This document shows, piece after piece, positions 1,369 through 62,684 of a stretch of DNA of 64,000 nucleotides. Numbering within the stretch: position 1 is the stretch's first letter; every line of letters starts with the position of its first letter. The DNA lies in IMG/VR virus record IMGVR_UViG_3300046776_000001, positions 939 through 64,938 of that record; one strand, given 5' to 3'. The translations under genes were made by a program, and so were the position numbers. A model generated the notes under the pieces. That model saw only the letters and a list, made by a program, of their open reading frames with translations, was not told the origin of the DNA and made no database searches. Source of the DNA: a virus (lineage: Duplodnaviria > Caudoviricetes).

Positions 1369-1379
1369 AGGCTATTTTT

Positions 1380-1416
1380 TTGCGCAAAGATATACGATAT
1401 TTTTTTATTTGCGCAA
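1380..1416 (-). promoter_or_regulatory. Promoter with TTGCGCAA palindrome at -33
   Basis: TTG-N21-TATCTTTG; TTGCGCAA at 1409-1416 and 1380-1387. Confidence 0.65.
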
Positions 1417-1425
1417 TGTTTTTAT

Positions 1426-10592: not shown

Positions 10593-10994
10593 CTATGTTT
10601 CATCGCTTTCATAATTTGCCGCCGCTTCTAAACAGTAGTCTTTCACCTGCTCAATGAAGTCTTTAAGGTGCGGCTTGTCCGCACTATAAGCAAACTCCGT
10701 TTCAAAATCGGTATTTACTGCAATCCAAACGTTTACATTGTCAATATCTTGCTGTGTTAATTCCCTGCCAAATTCCTTGTAAGATTTCTGCAAAGACTCT
10801 GTGCTAACCTCATTAATACACATAAAGACATTTGAAAAGTGGAAATTTGTTTCGGATTGGTCGTCAATGTCGTTTGTTCCTTCGTAGTGGCCAATTTCGC
10901 ATTCACCCTTTACGGTTACGGTTACGCCCTCTGTTTGCGAATACATTACTGTATATGATTCGCTAAACTCGATAATAATTTGTTGATCTTGCAT
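10593..10994 (-). CDS. hypothetical acidic protein
   Basis: 133-aa acidic ORF behind the repeat promoter at 11014. Confidence 0.7.
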   Translation of the reverse strand: MQDQQIIIEFSESYTVMYSQTEGVTVTVKGECEIGHYEGTNDIDDQSETNFHFSNVFMCINEVSTESLQKSYKEFGRELTQQDIDNVNVWIAVNTDFETEFAYSADKPHLKDFIEQVKDYCLEAAANYESDET

Positions 10995-11013
10995 TTTTGA
11001 TAAGTTGTTTAAT

Positions 11014-11132
11014 GTGATACAAAGGTAGTTGTTAGGGCTAACCCGTGCAACACTTTTTTGATTATTAACAACTCGTTAACAAATGGTAAGATTAAAAACG
11101 CCCCGATGTTTTTTAGTCATCGGGGCGTTTTT
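11014..11132 (-). repeat. Direct repeat copy 1 (terminator plus promoter TACCTTTG)
   Basis: About 118 bp, near-identical to 12400-12517. Confidence 0.9.
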
Positions 11133-12355: not shown

Positions 12356-12399
12356 AATATTTTTATTTAAGTGTGATTTGATACGCTTACCGCGTTTTA

Positions 12400-12517
12400 G
12401 TGATACAAAGGTAGTTGTTAAGGCTAACCCGTGCAACACTTTTTTGATTATTAACAACTTATTAACAAATGGTAAGATTAAAAACGCCCCGATGTTTTTT
12501 AGCATCGGGTCGTTTTT
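12400..12517 (-). repeat. Direct repeat copy 2 (terminator plus promoter TACCTTTG)
   Basis: Near-identical to 11014-11132. Confidence 0.9.
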
Positions 12518-13030: not shown

Positions 13031-13165
13031 TAGTGAGTGATAGCGTTACCGCGTTTTAGTGATACAAAGATACTACCCTTTTGTATTAAAGTGGTAACAT
13101 TTATTCAATTATTTTTGATTTTTATTTTTCAAAAACTTCTGAAAGTAGGTAAACCATTCACAATC
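13031..13165 (-). promoter_or_regulatory. Early promoter cassette (TATCTTTG 13065-13072; operator 13127-13144)
   Basis: Repeated cassette. Confidence 0.8.
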
Positions 13166-13171
13166 AACACA

Positions 13172-14062
13172 CTACCTATTTACAGAATAGATAAGGGTGT
13201 TTTTCTTTGCTTCAATACATAAAGCAAGTTCCCCAACCGTAATACGATAATCCATATTTTTACGACTTCGCACGATACGACCGTCTGCCTTTTGCGTATA
13301 TCCGTCGAAAACACTGTTTAAATAGTACGCCGGATTATTTGCCCCTTCGTACAAAACAGCATCGTTACCGCGCCCTAAATTAGCAGGAGAAAACACAACC
13401 AAATAGAAATCTACCGCCCTTTCTATCTTTTTGCCTTTAGTGTGATAACGGACGTATTTATCTGTTAAATCCATAATCTGTGATATTTGCCCGTTTTTAC
13501 AATACTGCTTTACGTCTGCTAAACTTTCGGACGTTATACCCGATAACCCGATACTGGTAAATTGAATCCATCCCGCCGCAATACCGTCGCGGCGTATTGT
13601 GAGCGGTTTTAGGCTGCACTCTGATAGAGCAGTTTGGTATATATAGTGCGGCGGTATTTGTAGTTCCGCTGCAAGCAGCCTGGTTCTTTTTATAACCTCG
13701 TTTGATATGTAAGCAGGGTTTAAATCCATAATTCTACGCTCGAACGCCTCACTTATATTGTCGCTGCTTAACCCGTCGTATTGGCCATCATACACGGGCG
13801 TTTCAAACCGTTGCACAAAATCCGAAATTTCAGCACGAAAAAAAGAAACGGTATAACCTAATAATAGCATTACGCCAAATCTTTTTAAAAAACCGTGTCG
13901 GTCTTTGCCAAATAAGAATTTAACAGACACCTCCAAAAACTGGATTGTTATGCCCAATATTTTTAATGCCCAGTAAATTAGATAGCAAAGTGCTGTGCAG
14001 GTTAGTGCGCCGAATAGTCCGTCGTAAGATAGGGCAATTTGGAGCGCGTCTGTTATGTTCAT
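13172..14062 (-). CDS. membrane-anchored lytic transglycosylase (SLT/lysozyme-like)
   Basis: Two N-terminal hydrophobic segments; ALSECS (catalytic Glu), AAGWIQFT, DFYLVVFSP, AYYLN..FD motifs. Confidence 0.7.
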   Translation of the reverse strand: MNITDALQIALSYDGLFGALTCTALCYLIYWALKILGITIQFLEVSVKFLFGKDRHGFLKRFGVMLLLGYTVSFFRAEISDFVQRFETPVYDGQYDGLSSDNISEAFERRIMDLNPAYISNEVIKRTRLLAAELQIPPHYIYQTALSECSLKPLTIRRDGIAAGWIQFTSIGLSGITSESLADVKQYCKNGQISQIMDLTDKYVRYHTKGKKIERAVDFYLVVFSPANLGRGNDAVLYEGANNPAYYLNSVFDGYTQKADGRIVRSRKNMDYRITVGELALCIEAKKNTLIYSVNR

Positions 14063-14063
14063 T

Positions 14064-14264
14064 TTATTGCTTGTTTCTGCGACCCATTGATTTTTGAAAT
14101 ACCCTAACCCTTCTATCGTTCTTAATTTCTAAACCAAAGTCTAAAATTAAAAGAAACAAAAGCGAACATACGCCAACCGCTGTCAAAAATAAATCATCTA
14201 TATGCAACTCGTAAAGTGTTGCAAATGTCAAAAATGCGAATAACAAATTAAGTACTTTATTCAT
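14064..14264 (-). CDS. small 2-TM membrane protein
   Basis: Hydrophobic 66-aa ORF. Confidence 0.65.
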   Translation of the reverse strand: MNKVLNLLFAFLTFATLYELHIDDLFLTAVGVCSLLFLLILDFGLEIKNDRRVRVFQKSMGRRNKQ

Positions 14265-14294
14265 TTTTTAGTGTGTTTTATTGTGTTAAATATT

Positions 14295-14522
14295 TTAAAA
14301 TAAATCGTAGTCTCCAGAATTAGTTAGTTTTTTAGCAGTCGATTTTTTACAATAAATAATACCATTTTTTTCGTATAAATCGCCGCCATTGATCGCGCCC
14401 TTTATTAAAGACCAAAATTCCCTTTCTGCTGATATAGAAAACCTTTTGCACAAATCCTCAAAACTACAAGGACTTAACCACAACGAGGCAAATGCGTCTT
14501 TTTTTAAATCCGTTAGTGTCAT
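14295..14522 (-). CDS. hypothetical protein
   Basis: 75-aa ORF. Confidence 0.6.
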   Translation of the reverse strand: MTLTDLKKDAFASLWLSPCSFEDLCKRFSISAEREFWSLIKGAINGGDLYEKNGIIYCKKSTAKKLTNSGDYDLF

Positions 14523-14532
14523 TTTTCTTTTT

Positions 14533-15060
14533 TTATGTTGTTAAATATTTTAAAATATAAATAGTGCCACCCAATAAATCAACACCAAACACCCATTCAA
14601 CAACCTCGCACAAAACAAAAGCGGCCAAAAACAATTCAGCCGCCGCCATTCCAATACATACCGCCATAAAATCGAAAGGTATTGGCGCAATGAATACAGC
14701 CAAGCAAAAAGCAGATTTACCCAAAAAATCGGGCAAAAGAAAATAAAGCAAAAGTGATATAATAGAATTTGGAGCAGTAAACCATTCGGTATAACCGGAA
14801 CTACCTTGCGGCACTCTTTTCGATCTGAAACGCTGGAATAATCCGTGCGCTTTGCCCTCGATCAATCGAGCAGAAAAAAGCGGTATTTTTATCCATATTC
14901 TTATGGGAAAAGAAACGCCGCTTTTTTCTAGTATTGACTTGCTTATTTGCGCTTTTCGCTCAATCGGGTCTTTACTAATGCCAATTTTCCAAAGATACCA
15001 CTTCGATATGTTAAGCGGGTTTTCGTGTGACATTATGTAGATGCTTTTGATTTCTATCAT
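14533..15060 (-). CDS. T5orf172/MUG113 (GIY-YIG-like) domain protein with hydrophobic C-terminus
   Basis: IYIM, WKIGISKDPIER, E...H..F..FR, G.TEWF, then about 70 hydrophobic residues. Confidence 0.75.
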   Translation of the reverse strand: MIEIKSIYIMSHENPLNISKWYLWKIGISKDPIERKAQISKSILEKSGVSFPIRIWIKIPLFSARLIEGKAHGLFQRFRSKRVPQGSSGYTEWFTAPNSIISLLLYFLLPDFLGKSAFCLAVFIAPIPFDFMAVCIGMAAAELFLAAFVLCEVVEWVFGVDLLGGTIYILKYLTT

Positions 15061-15284
15061 TTCATTTCGCTACTTATTCGGTCGTATTCCTTTTTTGTTA
15101 CCCTTACTGTTTTTGTTATTATTAATTGTCCATGCCAAAAACCATAATAACTTGCCATCAAATTGGCAATAGAATCCTTTATTTGATCGTCTGTAAATAC
15201 GCCGCTTTTTGATTTAAATGTAAAAAAAGACACGTAATAGCCGCCAACAATTTGACAATGAAAAAATGCTACAAAATACTTCAT
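15057..15284 (-). CDS. hypothetical protein
   Basis: 75-aa ORF, ATGA-coupled. Confidence 0.6.
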   Translation of the reverse strand: MKYFVAFFHCQIVGGYYVSFFTFKSKSGVFTDDQIKDSIANLMASYYGFWHGQLIITKTVRVTKKEYDRISSEMK

Positions 15285-16127
15285 TTAGTTTCTGTTGTTT
15301 AATTGTTTGCGTTCGTATTCGTCGTTTCCGCCCTTATGTTTAAAAAACCCGCCGCTATTAGGTTTTGCATTAGGAATAACAAAAGAAGCAAGCCACGATA
15401 TTGCGTATACTAGTCCGTAAAATATTAAAACCTTTGCAGGTAATGGCATGTCCCACGCGCTTGCATCAAACAACCATTTAAGCAGGTAAAATGATGCAAC
15501 TATACTAACTATTATAAACAGCACAAAAGATGCGCCCCTTTGCATATGTAGCAAAACATTATCGTACCATTTACCCGTATGCTGGTGTTCTAATTTTGCA
15601 ATCATGCTCCAAAGTAGGGCAACAAAACCAATACTAAGTATAGGCCATAGCATGTATTCAAATAGGCCAAAAAAATAGCCCCACGCTGTGCCAAATGTTT
15701 TGGAAATATCGTCATACCCTTGTTTCACTCCGTCCGCACCTCGTTTCATCGTTGCGCTGTCTGCCATTGTCGCAAAAGTGCGGCGCGGTTTTTCATCACC
15801 AAAAAGCGGCTTTACCCCTTCCTTTGTTTCGGCGGTTGGCTGCGTTGCGCCTTGCACCGTCTTACCGTTCACTAAAATATATTTCAATTTTCCAAACGAC
15901 ACATCGTTTTGAAAAAAACCGCCGCTTTTAAGGATAGTTTCAAACGACTGATTACCCGCGCTTTTGCGGTTTATTTGACCGCCGTGGTAGTGAAATTCAA
16001 CCACGCCCGCTGGTTCGCAAAAGGCAGGAATACCGCCAAAATACTTTTGTAGTGCGTCTGTTTTGGACTGTGAAAAAATGGCGATGCTGCACATCATTGC
16101 AGCAATCAAGATTAAAATATTTTTCAT
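15285..16127 (-). CDS. signal-peptide protein with 3-4 C-terminal TM helices
   Basis: MKNILILIAAMMCSIAIFS|Q; hydrophobic helices in the C-terminal half. Confidence 0.75.
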   Translation of the reverse strand: MKNILILIAAMMCSIAIFSQSKTDALQKYFGGIPAFCEPAGVVEFHYHGGQINRKSAGNQSFETILKSGGFFQNDVSFGKLKYILVNGKTVQGATQPTAETKEGVKPLFGDEKPRRTFATMADSATMKRGADGVKQGYDDISKTFGTAWGYFFGLFEYMLWPILSIGFVALLWSMIAKLEHQHTGKWYDNVLLHMQRGASFVLFIIVSIVASFYLLKWLFDASAWDMPLPAKVLIFYGLVYAISWLASFVIPNAKPNSGGFFKHKGGNDEYERKQLNNRN

Positions 16128-16140
16128 TGTGTGTAAATTT

Positions 16141-16884
16141 TTATTTGTTATCCGATACGGTTTTTTGTGCTATTTTAGTTTGCGTTTCTGCATCACCTTC
16201 AAACATTTTCATTTTGAACATTGCGCCGTTGTCCCTCCACCCTTTTACAAAGTATGCAATATACCGGGCGTAATTTTCTTTTGTTTCAATCGCAAAATTA
16301 TAATCCGGTGCAACTATTTTTTGATCGTTTGGCAGGTCGCTTTCCCATGCCAAAACCGCCCTACTTCCTACCTTCGCATCTGCAAACGGGTGCAAATACA
16401 TAACAATAAACGGACTAAAACGCGCTATACCAATGACCCAATATGTTTTAGACGCTGCTTGCTTTGCTTGTTCTAAACGTGCCGTATATTCCTCTGCTGT
16501 TTCGCCGTCTTTTTGCACTATTAAGCAGTCATTTTGTAAAGATGCCGCAATACTGCCCACATCACCGATTGATAATTGATATTGCGACCGTATCATTTCA
16601 CGCTGCTCCATATTTTTGGAGTAGGTCAAAACCAAAACCTTAGACACAAACGACGTTATAATAAGGATTAACAGCGCGTTTACTGCCAACATTTGCGCCC
16701 TTACAATCAAATCCATTGTTTCCTGTGTTGCTGGATAAAACGGTGGCAATAGCAAAGTAAATACCACCTGCAACACAAACCACCATAGAAAACCAGGCAC
16801 TTTGGCTATTGGTTCGCCTAAACAAACGTGCATAACTGCACTTTTCTCAAATTTTAAGTATTCCCCTATCATTTTGATTATCAA
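16141..16884 (-). CDS. membrane protein (2-3 TM)
   Basis: Hydrophobic segments at about aa 30-50 and 62-85. Confidence 0.75.
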   Translation of the reverse strand: MIIKMIGEYLKFEKSAVMHVCLGEPIAKVPGFLWWFVLQVVFTLLLPPFYPATQETMDLIVRAQMLAVNALLILIITSFVSKVLVLTYSKNMEQREMIRSQYQLSIGDVGSIAASLQNDCLIVQKDGETAEEYTARLEQAKQAASKTYWVIGIARFSPFIVMYLHPFADAKVGSRAVLAWESDLPNDQKIVAPDYNFAIETKENYARYIAYFVKGWRDNGAMFKMKMFEGDAETQTKIAQKTVSDNK

Positions 16885-16902
16885 TTATTTAAAAGTGCAT
16901 TT

Positions 16903-17241
16903 TTAAAAATGCACTACGTTTTGCACTATTTTTGTTGTATTTTTTTTGGTTGGGAATAGGGTAGCGCGTATGGTTGCTAACACCCTGCTTTTATAGATGT
17001 TCATACGCTCTATTTCTGCGTTCGTTTTACCTTCCTGCATAAGCGTGTAAACCTCCGTACATTTCTTTACATTTATAGTCTTTGTGCCTAATTCCTTTTT
17101 GAGTGCCAGTATTTGCGCATCTGTCAACTTAGCATCAAAAGCGCGACCGACCGACTGAAAACCTTTGTCGTTCGCCTCGCTTATTGTTAGATGCGTGTCG
17201 TTTATAGCGTTGTCGTCTTTATATTGTGCTAGTATTAACAT
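16903..17241 (-). CDS. hypothetical protein
   Basis: 112-aa ORF. Confidence 0.65.
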   Translation of the reverse strand: MLILAQYKDDNAINDTHLTISEANDKGFQSVGRAFDAKLTDAQILALKKELGTKTINVKKCTEVYTLMQEGKTNAEIERMNIYKSRVLATIRATLFPTKKNTTKIVQNVVHF

Positions 17242-17419
17242 ATGTCAATCTATTTAAAGGTAATTTTTGGCCTGTTGTGGTAATTATCAAACAATCCCTA
17301 ACGCTATCAAATGGCTGCATATCTGCAAATACTTGCTTTATGCTATTATACCGTTTCCCGTAAAATGTTATTGAATGTACTTTAAATTTGTGGCTTGTTT
17401 TTACGTTGACAAATAACAC
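17219..17419 (-). CDS. hypothetical protein
   Basis: 66-aa ORF. Confidence 0.6.
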   Translation of the reverse strand: MLFVNVKTSHKFKVHSITFYGKRYNSIKQVFADMQPFDSVRDCLIITTTGQKLPLNRLTYVNTSTI

Positions 17420-17421
17420 TG

Positions 17422-18141
17422 TTAAGCATTTTGGTAATTATGTTCGCTTTTCTCTTTCGTTTCTGTTATGCTAACGAGTAACAAAACGATAGGCAATAAC
17501 GACGTACCAAGCCCAAACAAACAGGCTGTTATAATTGTATCCCAGCCGCCAGTGTTAAACATTAACCCCGTGTTAGTTAAAATTTTTTGGTAGTACATTG
17601 TTGAGTGGACGTACACTAACGCTAACTCGAAACCTATAAGCCAGTTAACCGCCATTTTTGCGCTTTCTAAGGATAACTCCCTTTTTGTGAGGCGTGAAGT
17701 GTTGAGCGCGAATATAGCGTAAAGGATAGCCGCGCCCGTCCCGATCAATCCATATTGCGAAATTAGTCCGTAAGCCGTTACTATACAAACGGTAACCATT
17801 GCCGCATCCGACGCAGAAAAACGCAACACGGGCGAAAAAATGCTACTCATTTGCGATTTTACAGGCTCTTGATCTACTGCAAAAACTGAATTGTTGACGG
17901 GTAGGTGAATTGTGGCCTGTTTTGCTGCTTTTGGCCGCTTCGCTGTTACTTCTTTTTGAGCGGGCGAAATACTGCTAACAGCCGCACTATCGGACAATAA
18001 CACTAATACCTCTTTTGGTATGTTAAAATGTTTTTTAACAGACACCTTTGTTATTAATCCCTTTTCAGCAGCTCGGTTAATTTTCATTCTAATAACCTGC
18101 ATTGCTTTTTCGCTTCCGTTAGTGTACTCGTTATACGTCAT
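17422..18141 (-). CDS. membrane protein (about 4 C-terminal TM helices)
   Basis: Soluble N-terminus, hydrophobic C-terminal half; first gene after the promoter at 18171. Confidence 0.75.
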   Translation of the reverse strand: MTYNEYTNGSEKAMQVIRMKINRAAEKGLITKVSVKKHFNIPKEVLVLLSDSAAVSSISPAQKEVTAKRPKAAKQATIHLPVNNSVFAVDQEPVKSQMSSIFSPVLRFSASDAAMVTVCIVTAYGLISQYGLIGTGAAILYAIFALNTSRLTKRELSLESAKMAVNWLIGFELALVYVHSTMYYQKILTNTGLMFNTGGWDTIITACLFGLGTSLLPIVLLLVSITETKEKSEHNYQNA

Positions 18142-18170
18142 CGTTATAAGTTATTTTTGTTAGTGCGCCA

Positions 18171-18201
18171 CAAAGGTATGTTAACCGTTTTTGTTGCGCA
18201 A
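18171..18201 (-). promoter_or_regulatory. Promoter with TTGCGCAA at -33
   Basis: TTG-N20-TACCTTTG. Confidence 0.7.
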
Positions 18202-18542: not shown

Positions 18543-18905
18543 TTAAAAGTTGCCCGCGTTAACGGGCGTTTGTGATTTATTTAATTGTGTTTCAAGTGCC
18601 TCAATCGGTAAGTACTCTCTATTTTTCTGTTCGTCACTCATTTCTATTTCATTCTTGAAAGCCCTAACATTGTAAACTAACGTTTCAAGTATTGTAGGCT
18701 TGCCCTCTATCCTAATAAGGTTTACCGCCGGAATAACACTTCTACCCTTTTCAAATTCAGGCAAAGGCATTTTTATTGTTGGCCTATACTGTCCATACTC
18801 AAACCCCACAAATTCACTACTTGGAAAATTTTTTGTTATCCAGTCGGCAAACTCTCCTTTTTCATTAAAAACGTTTCTAGCGTGATAAAAAGTTAAGTGC
18901 ATCAT
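18543..18905 (-). CDS. hypothetical phage protein (likely start MMHLTF)
   Basis: Start abuts the stop of the upstream gene. Confidence 0.7.
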   Translation of the reverse strand: MMHLTFYHARNVFNEKGEFADWITKNFPSSEFVGFEYGQYRPTIKMPLPEFEKGRSVIPAVNLIRIEGKPTILETLVYNVRAFKNEIEMSDEQKNREYLPIEALETQLNKSQTPVNAGNF

Positions 18906-19188: not shown

Positions 19189-19241
19189 AATTTTATCTTT
19201 AAGTGAGTGAAAAGTTGCCCGCGTTAACGGGCGTTTTGTGA

Positions 19242-29592: not shown

Positions 29593-31047
29593 CTAATTTT
29601 TTGGAAAGTGCCGCAACTGGTCATTTGTCCATGTTACTACATTGCCGTTACTGTCGCTTCCTGTTATTCGAGTGACGTTAATATTTAACTTTGTCTTATA
29701 CTGCGTATAGACTAGCAATTCTGCAAAGTAGGCCGACCAGTACAGCGCGTCCGCAAAGTCCGAACCCTGAGCAAGTACAAGCCCCCTGTTGGCAAATACA
29801 AGCGTACTAAACGCATCGGTAATTCTTTTGCGCTCTACGTCTGCATTGGTATTGCTATTTACAGATAGTTCAATTTCGGAAATTGTCACAAATTTGGTAC
29901 TATTCGCCTTGATTGTTTTACTGCTTAGTCTTTGTATTTGCGGTATGGCAGACGGCACTTGCTTCCTAGGTAGCGGCGTACTAGGTAACGGTATATTTTC
30001 GCCCCAATACATTTTATAGTCGTTTTTAAAACCTAGCGTGTAAATTCGTATTGGGCGCACCGGATCGCCCGGTGGTGTTGGCGGTGGCGTTGGCGGTACA
30101 ACCGTGCCGGGTCTAGTATTTAAAACCGCCTCTATTAGTGCGATACCGTACCCAGTACCGTTATCTTTGCCCGTCGGTGCTATGTCCCTAGAAACAGCCG
30201 CTAAATACGTTTTAACCGCCGTGTAATTAGACAATAAATCACCCCATTTAGATATTGCAATAGCGACCACGCCCGACAAAAAAGGCGTTGCCATGCTTGT
30301 ACCGCTTATTGTAGCGTATTGATTATTTAACCAGCAACTTTGAATACTTCGCCCCGGCTGCGCGTTCCACACCTGTACGCCTTGTGTGCTGTATGACGAA
30401 CGACCGCCTGATTGATCGAGCGAAGCGCACGTAATTGAGTACTGAGACGAACCCGGGTATTGTACGCCTTCGCCGCCTGTATTACCCGCTGCAATGCAGT
30501 ACACGCCGCCCAAATCTGTTATTGCTTTCATTGCCGCCTCCACGTTACCAATAGCCGCCGTGTTGCCGCCAAACGAGCCTGAAACAACCGTGCGTATTCC
30601 TGCTGCTTTTCTTGCTCTATCTTTCGAAAGTTGATCTACCTCGCACAACCTAAACCACTCGAAAGAGCCGCCGCCCGTTGCCCCTAAAATCTGGTCAAAC
30701 TCGAAAGTAAGAACGCCCGACTTTACAAGGTCGAACGCAATGCCAAAATCCTGCGCAAAGATAATTCCGCCCACGTGCGTACCGTGTCCGTTGCGATCAA
30801 TGCCCCGAGCATCGGTGGTGTAATTAAACCCCGCCTGTTTGCCCTGCTGCAATTGCGCGTGGTCGGTATCCATTGCGGTATCAACTACCCTAATATGTAC
30901 CTTGTTTTTGCATTCCGCTGCAATGCGATTACGGAGCGCGTTTAGTTTGTGCTGTTCCGCACCCCAATTCGATACTAATACCCGTGTGCCGTCCCGTTTA
31001 GTTACACCGCTTTCGATGTTTTGCGGAAATTCACCGGGCTGGGGCAA
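29593..31047 (-). CDS. S8 subtilisin-family serine protease (frame open upstream to 31197)
   Basis: VVDTAMD, NGHGTHVGGII, AAGN, ISGTSMATP catalytic motifs; Pro-rich linker and C-terminal domain. Confidence 0.9.
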   Translation of the reverse strand: MPQPGEFPQNIESGVTKRDGTRVLVSNWGAEQHKLNALRNRIAAECKNKVHIRVVDTAMDTDHAQLQQGKQAGFNYTTDARGIDRNGHGTHVGGIIFAQDFGIAFDLVKSGVLTFEFDQILGATGGGSFEWFRLCEVDQLSKDRARKAAGIRTVVSGSFGGNTAAIGNVEAAMKAITDLGGVYCIAAGNTGGEGVQYPGSSQYSITCASLDQSGGRSSYSTQGVQVWNAQPGRSIQSCWLNNQYATISGTSMATPFLSGVVAIAISKWGDLLSNYTAVKTYLAAVSRDIAPTGKDNGTGYGIALIEAVLNTRPGTVVPPTPPPTPPGDPVRPIRIYTLGFKNDYKMYWGENIPLPSTPLPRKQVPSAIPQIQRLSSKTIKANSTKFVTISEIELSVNSNTNADVERKRITDAFSTLVFANRGLVLAQGSDFADALYWSAYFAELLVYTQYKTKLNINVTRITGSDSNGNVVTWTNDQLRHFPKN

Positions 31048-31124: not shown

Positions 31125-31580
31125 TTAAATTAGGGCAAAAAAAAACAGTACAAAAATTGTCGTAACTGCTGCGGGCGTTTTGGGTAGTTGCGCGTTTTTA
31201 AACACGTTCCACAAAATTGTAGCCAAACTTATTAACGCTGTTAAAATTCCCTGCCAGTTACCGCCAATTCCGGCTTCTATCGCCGCCCGTAACGCTGTAA
31301 AAACATCGGGCGTTAAAACAGGGAACAGTGCAATAAAGATAGTAGAAAGGTAGTTCCACGTGTTAGAATTTTGTATCCATTTAACGGGCGAAAACTCTGC
31401 CGTTTTAAAGAATACTCGAAACGCGCCCACGCTACCAATTAAGGTAAACAAAGACGCAACGACCTTTTCTGCTTCGCCTTTTGGAAAACCTACGAATAGG
31501 CCACCGATCAAAAGCTTTAATGTTTCGCCCGTTAGTGGGGTTTTTACGGGCGTTGCTCCGCCTCTTTTTTTGTCTGTCAT
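31125..31580 (-). CDS. holin-like multi-TM protein
   Basis: 4-5 hydrophobic helices; lies in the lysis cassette. Confidence 0.55.
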   Translation of the reverse strand: MTDKKRGGATPVKTPLTGETLKLLIGGLFVGFPKGEAEKVVASLFTLIGSVGAFRVFFKTAEFSPVKWIQNSNTWNYLSTIFIALFPVLTPDVFTALRAAIEAGIGGNWQGILTALISLATILWNVFKNAQLPKTPAAVTTIFVLFFFALI

Positions 31581-32236: not shown

Positions 32237-32710
32237 TTATTTTTTATTGTTATTTAATCTTGTGTATTTTGCGCTTCCGTCTTTGCGCCTTGTTGCAATT
32301 ATCGCGCTTTGTCGGTTTTTGCGGCGTGTTGTGTACGAAATATGTACCCAATCGTCAAACTCCTGTATGACTTGATCGAACACGATACCCGATGCAAGTA
32401 TAAATTCAAACAATTGTTGCGGCGTGTAACCTTTTGCGTGTATGTCTGCTGCCTCACCTCGTAAATGCTGCGAATTTGGCGCACCCCTTATTTCTTTATG
32501 CGAATTTAACGCCCTACACCTAAACCCGCTCGAAATCCGAACAGGTACGCCCAACTTGTCGCGTAAGGGCTGTAAAACGTTTTTGCATAAAGCGGTTAAA
32601 GCGGCTAATTGTTTTTCGTTTGGGACGTTTTCTATTCCTTCACGTGCTGCAATGTCGCTATGTATCATTTCGCGCAAACTGAAATTTGCGGTAATCATTA
32701 TGTCTGTCAT
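32237..32710 (-). CDS. endolysin, peptidase M15 family
   Basis: NFSL.E, SGFRC..LN, SQH..GEAADI, DQVIQE..WVHISY. Confidence 0.9.
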   Translation of the reverse strand: MTDIMITANFSLREMIHSDIAAREGIENVPNEKQLAALTALCKNVLQPLRDKLGVPVRISSGFRCRALNSHKEIRGAPNSQHLRGEAADIHAKGYTPQQLFEFILASGIVFDQVIQEFDDWVHISYTTRRKNRQSAIIATRRKDGSAKYTRLNNNKK

Positions 32711-62374: not shown

Positions 62375-62397
62375 AATTTTTTGTTTACAAAGTTACG

Positions 62398-62429
62398 CAA
62401 AGATATTGAATAAAAATTAAATTGCGCAA
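62398..62429 (-). promoter_or_regulatory. Promoter with TTGCGCAA at -33
   Basis: TTG-N21-TATCTTTG; terminator hairpin 62443-62469 just upstream. Confidence 0.65.
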
Positions 62430-62684
62430 ATAAAATAAAAAAAGCCGCCCATCTTACAACGGAGCGGCAAAGTTAAAAATTGAAAAACCATATTTTACAA
62501 AAACTCACATCTTTTCGATTGATACAAGGCACTGGTAAAAACCTTAAATTTACATCTAAGGTTTTTTAAGCAATGCAATTCTTTATACGTGTTTCTTTGT
62601 TTCTTGGTCTTGGGTAACCGTCCCGATTTACACCAGGACGGAAAACCCCAAAAAACCAAATGAAAACAATCTTTGTCTTAATTG

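What the first reader, a model, noticed from the sequence alone, without database searches (positions are those of the whole stretch)
13172..18201. Five-kb membrane operon with a muralytic enzyme and a membrane-tailed nuclease, far from the lysis genes
Seen: one TTGCGCAA-class promoter (18171-18201) precedes ten tightly packed genes. Six of them have TM or signal segments: a 4-TM protein, a 2-3 TM protein, a signal-peptide protein with several TMs, a T5orf172 domain with a TM tail, a 2-TM protein, and a TM-anchored lytic transglycosylase. The usual lysis cassette (M15 endolysin, holin-like genes) is elsewhere, at 31-32.7 kb. Inference: a dedicated envelope complex combining cell-wall opening with DNA cleavage at the membrane, for example superinfection exclusion that destroys incoming DNA, or a trans-envelope DNA or protein conduit. 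I do not recognise this gene set as a described system.
Basis: partly seen in the sequence, partly recalled or inferred. Interest (0 to 1): 0.7.

Follow-up and report, generated by a model that had tools for sequence, protein, structure and literature searches.

The report
Conserved phage inner-membrane wall-cutter/nuclease module
This uncultured Bacteroidota phage carries a five-gene membrane module, conserved and still undescribed, that pairs a membrane-anchored cell-wall-cutting enzyme facing the periplasm with a membrane-anchored DNA-cutting enzyme facing the cytoplasm; it most plausibly destroys DNA entering the infected cell, but its function is untested.

Summary
A Bacteroidota-type promoter (-7 box at 18178) precedes ten tightly packed minus-strand ORFs (13172-18141), and six of them have hydrophobic segments. 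P7 is a T5orf172/GIY-YIG domain with a C-terminal TM hairpin. P10 has two TM helices plus a lytic-transglycosylase-like domain (profile vs PDB 9udh, E 7e-8). The M15 endolysin is at 32237-32710.

- **Only five genes are conserved.** They recur in the same order in at least 12 divergent IMG/VR phages and in about 28 metagenome contigs: a variable multi-TM protein (the P1 slot), P3, P4+P5, P7 and P10.
- **P4 and P5 are two halves of one protein.** In most relatives they form a single ~520-600-aa, 6-TM protein. P5's "signal peptide" is that protein's third TM helix. The split is natural and recurs in other lineages.
- **P2, P6, P8 and P9 are swappable inserts.**
- **There is a cellular version.** One Saprospiraceae genus-level group has adjacent P10-like and P5-like genes in a non-phage setting, without the nuclease.

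No module protein other than P7 matches Pfam, and none matches PADLOC. The P4/P5 models found no convincing known fold. The closest functional precedent for P7 is SNIPE, a membrane-bound GIY-YIG nuclease that cleaves injected phage DNA.

My best reading is exclusion of incoming DNA at the entry site (confidence about 0.35). An accessory lysis role and envelope remodelling remain open.

The parts
18171..18201 (-). Promoter: TTGCGCAA (-33 region), 15 nt, TACCTTTG (-7 box, first base at 18178)
   Evidence: The same architecture occurs at -7 boxes 62405 and 1392.
17422..18141 (-). P1, 239 aa: soluble N-terminal part of ~110 aa plus 3-4 TM helices. This is the variable first slot of the module.
   Evidence: Close relatives of 44-93% identity lie on the same contigs as P7 and P10 relatives. 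Proteins in this slot in distant phages have the same architecture, but homology to P1 is not demonstrable.
17219..17419 (-). P2, 66-aa ORF with a GTG start; not conserved, coding status uncertain
   Evidence: No family hit. The exact sequence is not in the protein collection.
16903..17241 (-). P3, 112-aa soluble core protein of unknown fold
   Evidence: Iterated search finds it directly upstream of the fused P4/P5 gene in L005, L009, L010, L012, L013, L016 and L017. Its 90% cluster has 23 members. Alignment A8.
16141..16884 (-). P4, 247 aa (probable start 16872): TM hairpin plus a cytoplasmic alpha/beta domain. It is the N-terminal half of the 6-TM core protein.
   Evidence: AlphaFold2 model mf3e8bee18bae has mean pLDDT 80.6, above 90 over residues 120-230.
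15285..16127 (-). P5, 280 aa: signal-like TM helix, small periplasmic beta domain, 3-TM bundle, basic cytoplasmic tail. It is the C-terminal half of the core protein.
   Evidence: In the fused-homologue model the beta domain and the 3-TM bundle have pLDDT above 90.
15057..15284 (-). P6, 75-aa insert, absent from the nearest relative L003
   Evidence: Its 90% cluster has 4 members.
14533..15060 (-). P7, 175 aa: N-terminal T5orf172/GIY-YIG domain plus a C-terminal TM hairpin with an invariant P-x-P-x-D turn
   Evidence: Pfam PF10544. Alignment A4 has invariant K25, G27, R35, E68, H72, G89, T91, E92, N98, P126, P128 and D130. Found in 15 of 19 phage sequences, counting the window.
14295..14522 (-). 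P8, 75-aa variable insert
   Evidence: In L003 a different 131-aa ORF takes the place of P8 and P9.
14064..14264 (-). P9, 66-aa variable insert with two TM helices
13172..14062 (-). P10, 296 aa: two TM helices with a basic loop between them, then a periplasmic lytic-transglycosylase-like domain (~residues 120-265)
   Evidence: Profile vs PDB 9udh, E 7.4e-8. phrog_196. E148, R157, D159 and the AAGWIQ-T motif (A162-Q167, T169; F168 nearly invariant) are invariant in 37 sequences.
13046..13140 (-). Next promoter on this strand (-7 box TATCTTTG from 13072) with its upstream inverted repeat; it marks the downstream end of the unit
   Evidence: It belongs to a seven-copy promoter family (-7 boxes at 47, 734, 2891, 13072, 20193, 28446, 29014).

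Best explanation
The region is one transcription unit built around a mobile five-gene inner-membrane module of siphoviruses that infect Bacteroidota (probably Saprospiraceae-like hosts). The five genes are a variable multi-TM protein (P1), a small soluble protein (P3), a 6-TM protein here split into P4 and P5, a GIY-YIG/T5orf172 nuclease held at the cytoplasmic face by a C-terminal TM hairpin (P7), and a lytic-transglycosylase-like enzyme held at the periplasmic face by an N-terminal TM hairpin (P10).

**Shown:** co-conservation and gene order; the domain assignments; conservation of the presumed catalytic residues; the natural split of P4/P5.

**Inferred:** the proteins assemble in the inner membrane of the infected cell and act at sites of DNA entry. 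P5 and P10 engage the cell wall and periplasm. P1 and P4/P5 act as scaffold or sensor. P7 cuts DNA that arrives through the membrane. The result would be exclusion of superinfecting phages or other incoming DNA, in the manner of the bacterial membrane nuclease SNIPE but built from several proteins and encoded by a phage.
For: - **Co-conservation and order.**. A search started from P7 recovers only P10-bearing contigs, 9 of 9.
- **Own transcription unit.** A Bacteroidota-type promoter lies directly before the first module gene here and in L008, L009 and L016.
- **P7 looks like a working nuclease.** It keeps the GIY-YIG set: Y8 nearly invariant; G27, R35, E92 and N98 invariant. Its domain has no signal peptide and precedes the TM hairpin, so it should face the cytoplasm.
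- **P10 looks like a working, periplasm-facing enzyme.** It keeps an invariant Glu in an E-C/S context plus a G-W-I-Q motif, and it matches a solved lytic transglycosidase. The basic loop between its two TM helices puts the enzyme domain in the periplasm.
- **Precedent.** SNIPE is a membrane-bound GIY-YIG nuclease that cleaves phage DNA during injection and is harmless to resident DNA (PMC13190303).
- **Accessory, fast-changing behaviour, as expected for exclusion genes.**
  - It is absent from 9 of 9 complete genomes whose TerL is 37-41% identical to this one, yet present in phages with other backgrounds.
  - The TM domain of P5 is swapped between this phage and its 88-95% identical relative L003.
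  - The P1 slot is not alignable between subgroups.
- **Host capture.** A host lineage has kept the P10-P5 pair.
Against: - No function was tested.
- No described superinfection-exclusion system needs a wall-cutting enzyme, and the role proposed for P10 is a guess.
- P7 lacks SNIPE's DUF4041 and has the opposite domain order. No PADLOC model matches any of the ten proteins.
- The cellular P10-P5 pair lacks the nuclease, so the pair must have a function that does not involve DNA cutting.
- In five relatives the module adjoins the lysis genes. Here its promoter type is shared with the packaging operon. Both points fit a late or egress role equally well.
- No integrase was seen in the ORFs scanned, so prophage-type exclusion is unlikely; exclusion during lytic growth remains possible.
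Confidence: 0.35

Rival explanations
1. Accessory lysis or egress module. P10 is a membrane-tethered endolysin-like transglycosylase. It is released or activated by the polytopic membrane proteins (P1, P4/P5) acting as holin or antiholin-like regulators. P7 degrades host DNA late in infection.
For: - The module lies directly after the M15 endolysin and holin-like genes on the same strand in L005 and L016, and next to them in L004, L008 and L009.
- In seven other loci it lies directly upstream of terS/TerL.
- Here its TTGCGCAA promoter type is shared with the packaging operon.
- Lambda R is a transglycosylase endolysin and SAR endolysins are membrane-tethered (established knowledge).
Against: - The phage already has an M15 endolysin with holin-like neighbours.
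- P10 has two well-conserved TM helices with a basic loop, not a single weakly hydrophobic SAR helix.
- A membrane-anchored nuclease and the P3 and P4 cytoplasmic domains have no place in known lysis cassettes.
- A bacterial lineage keeps the P10-P5 pair in a stable chromosomal site, which is odd for lysis genes.
- In this genome the module sits among replication and recombination genes.
Confidence: 0.2
2. Envelope remodelling or a trans-envelope device not aimed at incoming DNA. The phage brings its own version of a host P10-P5 envelope system and extends it with cytoplasmic parts. Its purpose could be to reshape wall and membrane for replication or assembly sites, or to move DNA or protein across the envelope.
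For: - The P10-like and P5-like genes are adjacent in chromosomes of one Saprospiraceae genus-level group, often followed by an Omp85/POTRA outer-membrane protein.
- Cellular P5-like proteins carry a long Pro-rich periplasmic linker, reminiscent of periplasm-spanning proteins.
- Wall-cutting enzymes typically accompany envelope-spanning machines such as VirB1, FlgJ and EtgA (established knowledge).
Against: - No ATPase, secretin, pilin or channel family was found in the ten ORFs.
- The Omp85 neighbour is not constant.
- Nothing indicates a substrate.
Confidence: 0.2
3. There is no common function: the region is a chance mosaic of unrelated small early genes (morons).
For: P2, P6, P8 and P9 are not conserved and are exchanged even between near-identical phages. 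This region of the genome is mosaic.
Against: Five genes keep the same order at 30-40% protein identity across many phages with different flanks. Two of them also travel together in bacteria.
Confidence: 0.05

Closest known systems
SNIPE (Saxton et al., Nature 2026, PMC13190303): a bacterial inner-membrane GIY-YIG nuclease that cleaves phage DNA during injection
   Same: A GIY-YIG-class nuclease domain is tethered to the inner membrane and faces the cytoplasm. The idea is to tell foreign DNA from resident DNA by location.
   Different: SNIPE is a single protein with an N-terminal TM helix, DUF4041 and a C-terminal nuclease. P7 has an N-terminal nuclease and a C-terminal TM hairpin, no DUF4041 and no PADLOC match. 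P7 is phage-encoded and always accompanied by three to four other membrane or soluble proteins, including a wall-cutting enzyme.
Multi-component membrane defence systems Zorya and Kiwa (as summarised in PMC13190303)
   Same: Several proteins; a membrane or wall-facing sensor part plus a DNA-targeting effector; action at the entry site.
   Different: No sequence relationship was found (PADLOC). There is no MotAB-like stator and no KwaB-type domain. The module is phage-borne.
Phage superinfection-exclusion proteins: T4 Imm/Sp, P22 SieA, HK97 gp15 (from established knowledge)
   Same: Small phage-encoded inner-membrane proteins that act on incoming DNA or on the incoming phage's wall-cutting enzyme.
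   Different: Those are one or two small proteins with no enzyme domains. No homology was detected.
PDB 9udh 'lytic transglycosidase' and PHROG 196 (C-terminal domain of a baseplate hub)
   Same: The P10 enzyme domain (~residues 124-257) aligns with the presumed catalytic Glu and the G-x-I-Q-F motif.
   Different: P10 is not a virion protein by context. It has an N-terminal TM hairpin and a ~50-aa conserved linker. No Pfam SLT model matches it.
SAR endolysins (P1 Lyz, phage 21 R) and the lambda R transglycosylase
   Same: A muralytic enzyme of a phage, tethered to the membrane through its N-terminus.
   Different: P10 has two TM helices with a conserved basic loop; it stands apart from the canonical endolysin of the same genome; and it has a conserved partner, P5, also in bacteria.

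Membership tests
T5orf172 / GIY-YIG nuclease superfamily (P7) | Match to Pfam PF10544 above the gathering score | tested here: met
   E 1.1e-5, 26.3 bits against a cut-off of 20. Close relatives also carry precomputed PF10544.
T5orf172 / GIY-YIG nuclease superfamily (P7) | Conserved catalytic constellation: Tyr of GIY, Gly of YIG, Arg, Glu, Asn | tested here: met
   Y8 is nearly invariant; G27, R35, E92 and N98 are invariant in 13 sequences of 21-91% identity. The mapping onto I-TevI residues rests on my own knowledge.
T5orf172 / GIY-YIG nuclease superfamily (P7) | Nuclease activity | not testable with these tools
   Needs purified protein.
SNIPE defence family | DUF4041 domain between the membrane anchor and the nuclease | tested here: not met
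   Pfam scan of P7 finds only T5orf172 and MUG113. The protein has 175 aa, which leaves no room for DUF4041.
SNIPE defence family | N-terminal TM anchor with C-terminal nuclease | tested here: not met
   The order is reversed: nuclease at residues 1-100, hydrophobic hairpin at 107-151.
SNIPE defence family | Match to a defence-system HMM | tested here: not met
   No PADLOC family at E <= 0.1 for any of the ten proteins. This library dates from 2023 and may not hold a SNIPE model.
GH23-type lytic transglycosylase (P10) | Sequence relationship to a solved or annotated lytic transglycosylase | tested here: met
   Profile A1 vs PDB 9udh, E 7.4e-8 over residues 124-257. phrog_196, E 3.9e-7.
GH23-type lytic transglycosylase (P10) | Catalytic Glu followed by Ser/Cys, then a G-x-x-Q motif | tested here: met
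   E148-C149 and G164-W-I-Q167 are invariant in 37 sequences.
GH23-type lytic transglycosylase (P10) | Match to a Pfam SLT or lysozyme-like model | tested here: not met
   No such family at E <= 1 for any of 17 members.
GH23-type lytic transglycosylase (P10) | Formation of 1,6-anhydro-muropeptides | not testable with these tools
   Needs an enzyme assay.
Holin / SAR-endolysin lysis cassette | A single weakly hydrophobic N-terminal SAR helix on the enzyme | tested here: not met
   Two hydrophobic segments separated by a basic loop are conserved across the family.
Holin / SAR-endolysin lysis cassette | Adjacency to the phage's other lysis genes | tested here: inconclusive
   Adjacent in L004, L005, L008, L009 and L016. 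About 13 kb away in the window, and next to terS/TerL in seven other loci.
Type IV secretion / conjugation apparatus | VirB4/VirD4-type ATPase and VirB6/8/9/10-type components beside the VirB1-like enzyme | tested here: not met
   No such Pfam, NCBIfam or PHROG family in the ten ORFs or in the fused homologues.

The most novel reading that the evidence does not exclude
The module is a phage-built, multi-protein envelope sentinel. A periplasmic pair (the P10 transglycosylase and P5) monitors or acts on the cell wall at sites where another phage breaches it. It signals through the 6-TM protein to release a membrane-parked GIY-YIG nuclease onto the entering DNA. The wall-facing pair was later captured and kept by a Saprospiraceae lineage for its own envelope biology. 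This would be a new class of multi-component entry-site immunity, of phage origin.
Probability: 0.15. Interest if true: 0.8.

Novelty: new variant of a known kind. Interest (0 to 1): 0.6.

Why it matters
**Why it would matter.** Membrane-localised destruction of incoming DNA was demonstrated only recently, for the bacterial single-protein system SNIPE. A phage-encoded system with several proteins would show two things: that phages use the same spatial logic against competitors, and that wall-facing components can be part of it.

**What stands regardless of function.**
- The work defines four protein families with no annotation: P3, P4/P5 (271 clusters at 50% identity among 1.84 billion representatives), the P7 subtype and the P10 subtype.
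- It shows that P4/P5 exists in both fused and naturally split forms.
- It documents a probable gene exchange between phage and host, with a stable chromosomal copy in one bacterial group.

**Limit.** Phage and host are uncultured, so tests need a surrogate Bacteroidota host.

Tried and rejected
- **blastn of the 5-kb region against the GenBank phage collection:** no match.
- **The look-up of encoding contigs:** The 46-61-kb contigs that carry the 69-91% identical relatives could not be read.
- **Complex prediction for P5 with P10:** score 0.00, no verdict either way.
- **Fold searches with the fused-homologue model and the P4 model:**
  - Foldseek against PDB put DUF820/Uma2-type putative PD-(D/E)XK nucleases on top for both models (E 0.07-0.3, prob 0.8-0.99).
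  - The VIA second look did not list them, and the best match to the domain had Z 4.6. No (D/E)xK motif is conserved. I treat a nuclease-like fold for P4 as an unconfirmed lead.
  - The wide VIA searches returned only generic helical bundles.
  - BFVD gave nothing.
- **ESM Atlas for P5 and P1:** nothing usable.
- **Profile searches of P3, P5 and P7 against PDB sequences:** nothing meaningful.
- **Pfam on P3 family members:** nothing.
- **PADLOC:** nothing.
- **Homology between P1-slot proteins of different subgroups:** not demonstrable by iterated search or hhalign.
- **Mre operon idea:** I considered and rejected that the cellular neighbours were an mreBCD-PBP2 operon. Pfam shows a TIM-barrel isomerase and an Omp85 protein instead.
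- **Alignment-based locus searches with the fused family:** failed for lack of a conserved 7-10-residue stretch.

Full report
**Setting.** The window is almost the whole of a 64.9-kb IMG/VR virus record (98% complete by CheckV). Nearly all genes are on the minus strand.
- It is a siphovirus-type phage. PHROGs finds a tape-measure protein, TerL, a minor tail protein and an S8 protease, plus a head maturation protease.
- Pfam finds RecT, a YqaJ-type recombinase, a DnaC-like ATPase, DNA methylases and an M15 endolysin.
- The promoters have the Bacteroidota form TTG-N(~20)-TAnnTTTG.

**The observation.** The promoter, the ten tightly packed ORFs and the six proteins with hydrophobic segments are all present as described.
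- The promoter (TTGCGCAA, 15 nt, TACCTTTG) shares its layout with only two others in the genome. One of them precedes the packaging genes.
- The next repeated promoter starts about 90 nt after P10. A single unit is plausible, but transcription was not measured.
- P7 is a T5orf172 domain above Pfam's threshold.
- P10 has no Pfam hit. A profile of its family matches the solved 'lytic transglycosidase' 9udh at E 7.4e-8, aligned over the presumed catalytic Glu. It also matches the C-terminal domain of PHROG 196.

**Conservation.** I collected P10 relatives from three sources.
- The protein database gave 18 clusters of 36-96% identity.
- IMG/VR gave 18 loci.
- JGI metagenomes gave 75 loci.

ORF maps of these loci show one recurring order:
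1. a multi-TM protein with a soluble N-terminal part;
2. a ~110-aa soluble protein (the P3 family);
3. a 520-600-aa protein with six TM helices;
4. a ~160-aa T5orf172 protein with a TM hairpin (P7);
5. a few variable small ORFs;
6. P10.

Further points on conservation:
- The 6-TM protein matches both P4 and P5.
- Iterated searches place P3 in 7 phage loci and P7 in 14, besides the window. The loci that lack them are mostly cut off by a contig end.
- A search started from P7 alone returned nine contigs, and all nine had already been found through P10.
- Close relatives of P1, P7 and P10 share contig lengths (60,696; 46,224; 15,288; 6,687 bases and others), so they co-occur there too.
- P2, P6, P8 and P9 are not conserved. 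In L003, which is 88-95% identical to the window in its flanks, P6 is missing and P8/P9 are replaced by another ORF.

**P4 and P5 are one protein in two pieces.**
- The alignment shows that P4 ends and P5 begins exactly before the third TM helix of the fused form. In all members that helix ends in a signal-peptidase-like A-x-Q|K motif.
- TM positions of P4+P5 coincide with those of the 535-aa homologue in L008.
- The two ORFs are in different frames, 13 nt apart.
- A profile search of 1.84 billion representatives found 271 clusters. Most are fused, but many are free N-halves (~280-315 aa) or free C-halves (~260-300 aa) that start at that same helix. L084, L132 and L145 are further split examples.
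- The split is therefore natural and recurrent, not a broken gene.

**Predicted structure of P4/P5.** AlphaFold2 models of the L008 homologue (mean pLDDT 83) and of P4 (80.6) show four parts:
- a TM hairpin;
- a confident cytoplasmic alpha/beta domain;
- a small periplasmic beta domain;
- a three-helix TM bundle.

No convincing known fold was found for any of these.

**Topology.** This comes from hydropathy and charge distribution and is inference.
- *Cytoplasmic:* the N-terminal part of P1, P3, the P4 domain and the P7 nuclease.
- *Periplasmic:* the P5 beta domain and the P10 enzyme. P10 has a short acidic N-terminus, a first TM helix, a loop with five Lys/Arg, a second TM helix and then the enzyme domain.

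**Catalytic residues.**
- P7 keeps the GIY-YIG set across 21-91% identity. It also has an invariant P-x-P-x-D turn inside its TM hairpin.
- P10 keeps E148, R157, D159 and the AAGWIQ-T motif (A162-Q167, T169; F168 nearly invariant) in all 37 sequences, cellular ones included.

**A cellular counterpart.** A scan of one genome per GTDB species found 53 loci, almost all in Saprospiraceae, Lewinellaceae or Chitinophagales MAGs, some on contigs of up to 1 Mb.
- In 28 of these genome loci a P10-like gene (~332 aa) is directly followed by a full-length P5-like gene (~320 aa). That gene has a signal peptide, the same beta domain, a long Pro-rich linker and three TM helices.
- The neighbours are not phage genes: a TIM-barrel isomerase, a Na/H exchanger, a cytochrome c peroxidase, CorC and often an Omp85/POTRA protein.
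- None of the 38 cell-type loci (28 genome, 10 metagenome) has P3, the P4 domain or P7 upstream.
- Full-length P10 homologues were found in 27 of 61 genomes of one genus-level group. Outside the query genome they were found in none of 120 other family-level and none of 150 other order-level genomes sampled.
- In a quick maximum-likelihood tree the cellular sequences form a compact group set among long-branched phage sequences. The careful search did not finish and the tree is midpoint-rooted. This fits a single exchange between phage and host, but the direction is not established.

**Distribution among phages.**
- The module is present in phages whose TerL is more than 50% identical to this one.
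- It is absent from nine complete genomes whose TerL is 37-41% identical.
- It is present in phages with other backgrounds.
- Its position varies. It lies just upstream of terS/TerL in seven loci. It lies just after or beside the endolysin and holin-like genes in five. Here it lies among replication and recombination genes.

**Function.** Nothing was measured.
- The closest precedent for P7 is SNIPE, a membrane-bound GIY-YIG nuclease that cuts phage DNA during injection while sparing resident DNA.
- P7 is not a SNIPE family member. Its domain order is reversed, it has no DUF4041, and no PADLOC model matches it.
- Three things make exclusion of incoming DNA my best reading, at about 0.35:
  - the combination of a cytoplasm-facing membrane nuclease, polytopic membrane proteins and a wall-facing enzyme;
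  - the accessory distribution;
  - the fast turnover of P1 and of the P5 TM domain.
- An accessory lysis role (0.2) and envelope remodelling or a trans-envelope device (0.2) are not excluded. The lysis reading has the better positional evidence. A chance mosaic is unlikely (0.05).

Noticed in passing
L026:9935-13980 (likewise L029, L063 and about 25 other genome loci): Chromosomal gene pair in one Saprospiraceae genus-level group: a P10-like transglycosylase with two TM helices, directly followed by a P5-like membrane protein with a long Pro-rich periplasmic linker, and often by an Omp85/POTRA protein. There are no phage genes around it. It may be an undescribed envelope system of these bacteria.
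   Followed up: partly
window 62390-62450 and 1375-1425 (minus strand): Two further promoters with the layout TTGCGCAA-N16-TAnnTTTG. One lies ahead of the packaging genes and one ahead of the ORF at 1039-1368. The palindromic 8-mer could be a regulator site shared with the module.
   Followed up: partly
L003, L004, L006, L007, L015, L018, L019, L020, L212; G323: Eight of 18 IMG/VR contigs with P10 end within 2 kb upstream of it, inside the module. So does the contig behind L212, found through TerL (P10 from base 1581). The contig whose TerL is 99% identical to the window's (G323) lacks exactly window 10.5-21.8 kb, with both of its ends there. This suggests strain-level variation that breaks assemblies at this region.
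   Followed up: partly
window 15285-15709 versus L003:264-676: Between two phages that are 88-95% identical in the flanks, the part of P5 that encodes its three TM helices is not alignable at DNA level (P5's C-terminal 186 aa are 55% identical to L003 at the protein level). The periplasmic part is nearly identical. This is an allele swap with a junction inside the gene.
   Followed up: partly
L004:3106-5091 (minus strand): A single 661-aa ORF matches both the window's holin-like protein (31125-31580, 33%) and its S8 protease (29593-31047, 41%). A fused form of these two neighbouring window genes therefore exists in a relative. This bears on the separate note about a T9 slippery run at 31137-31145.
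   Followed up: no
window 10985-11108 and 12370-12494 (minus strand): A ~95-nt promoter-plus-leader segment occurs twice, nearly identical (-7 boxes at 11027 and 12413). One stretch of L003 matches both copies.
   Followed up: no
window 18551-18568 and 19216-19233: The same GC-rich hairpin (TGCCCGCGTTAACGGGCG) occurs twice, 665 nt apart, each near the end of a small minus-strand ORF.
   Followed up: no
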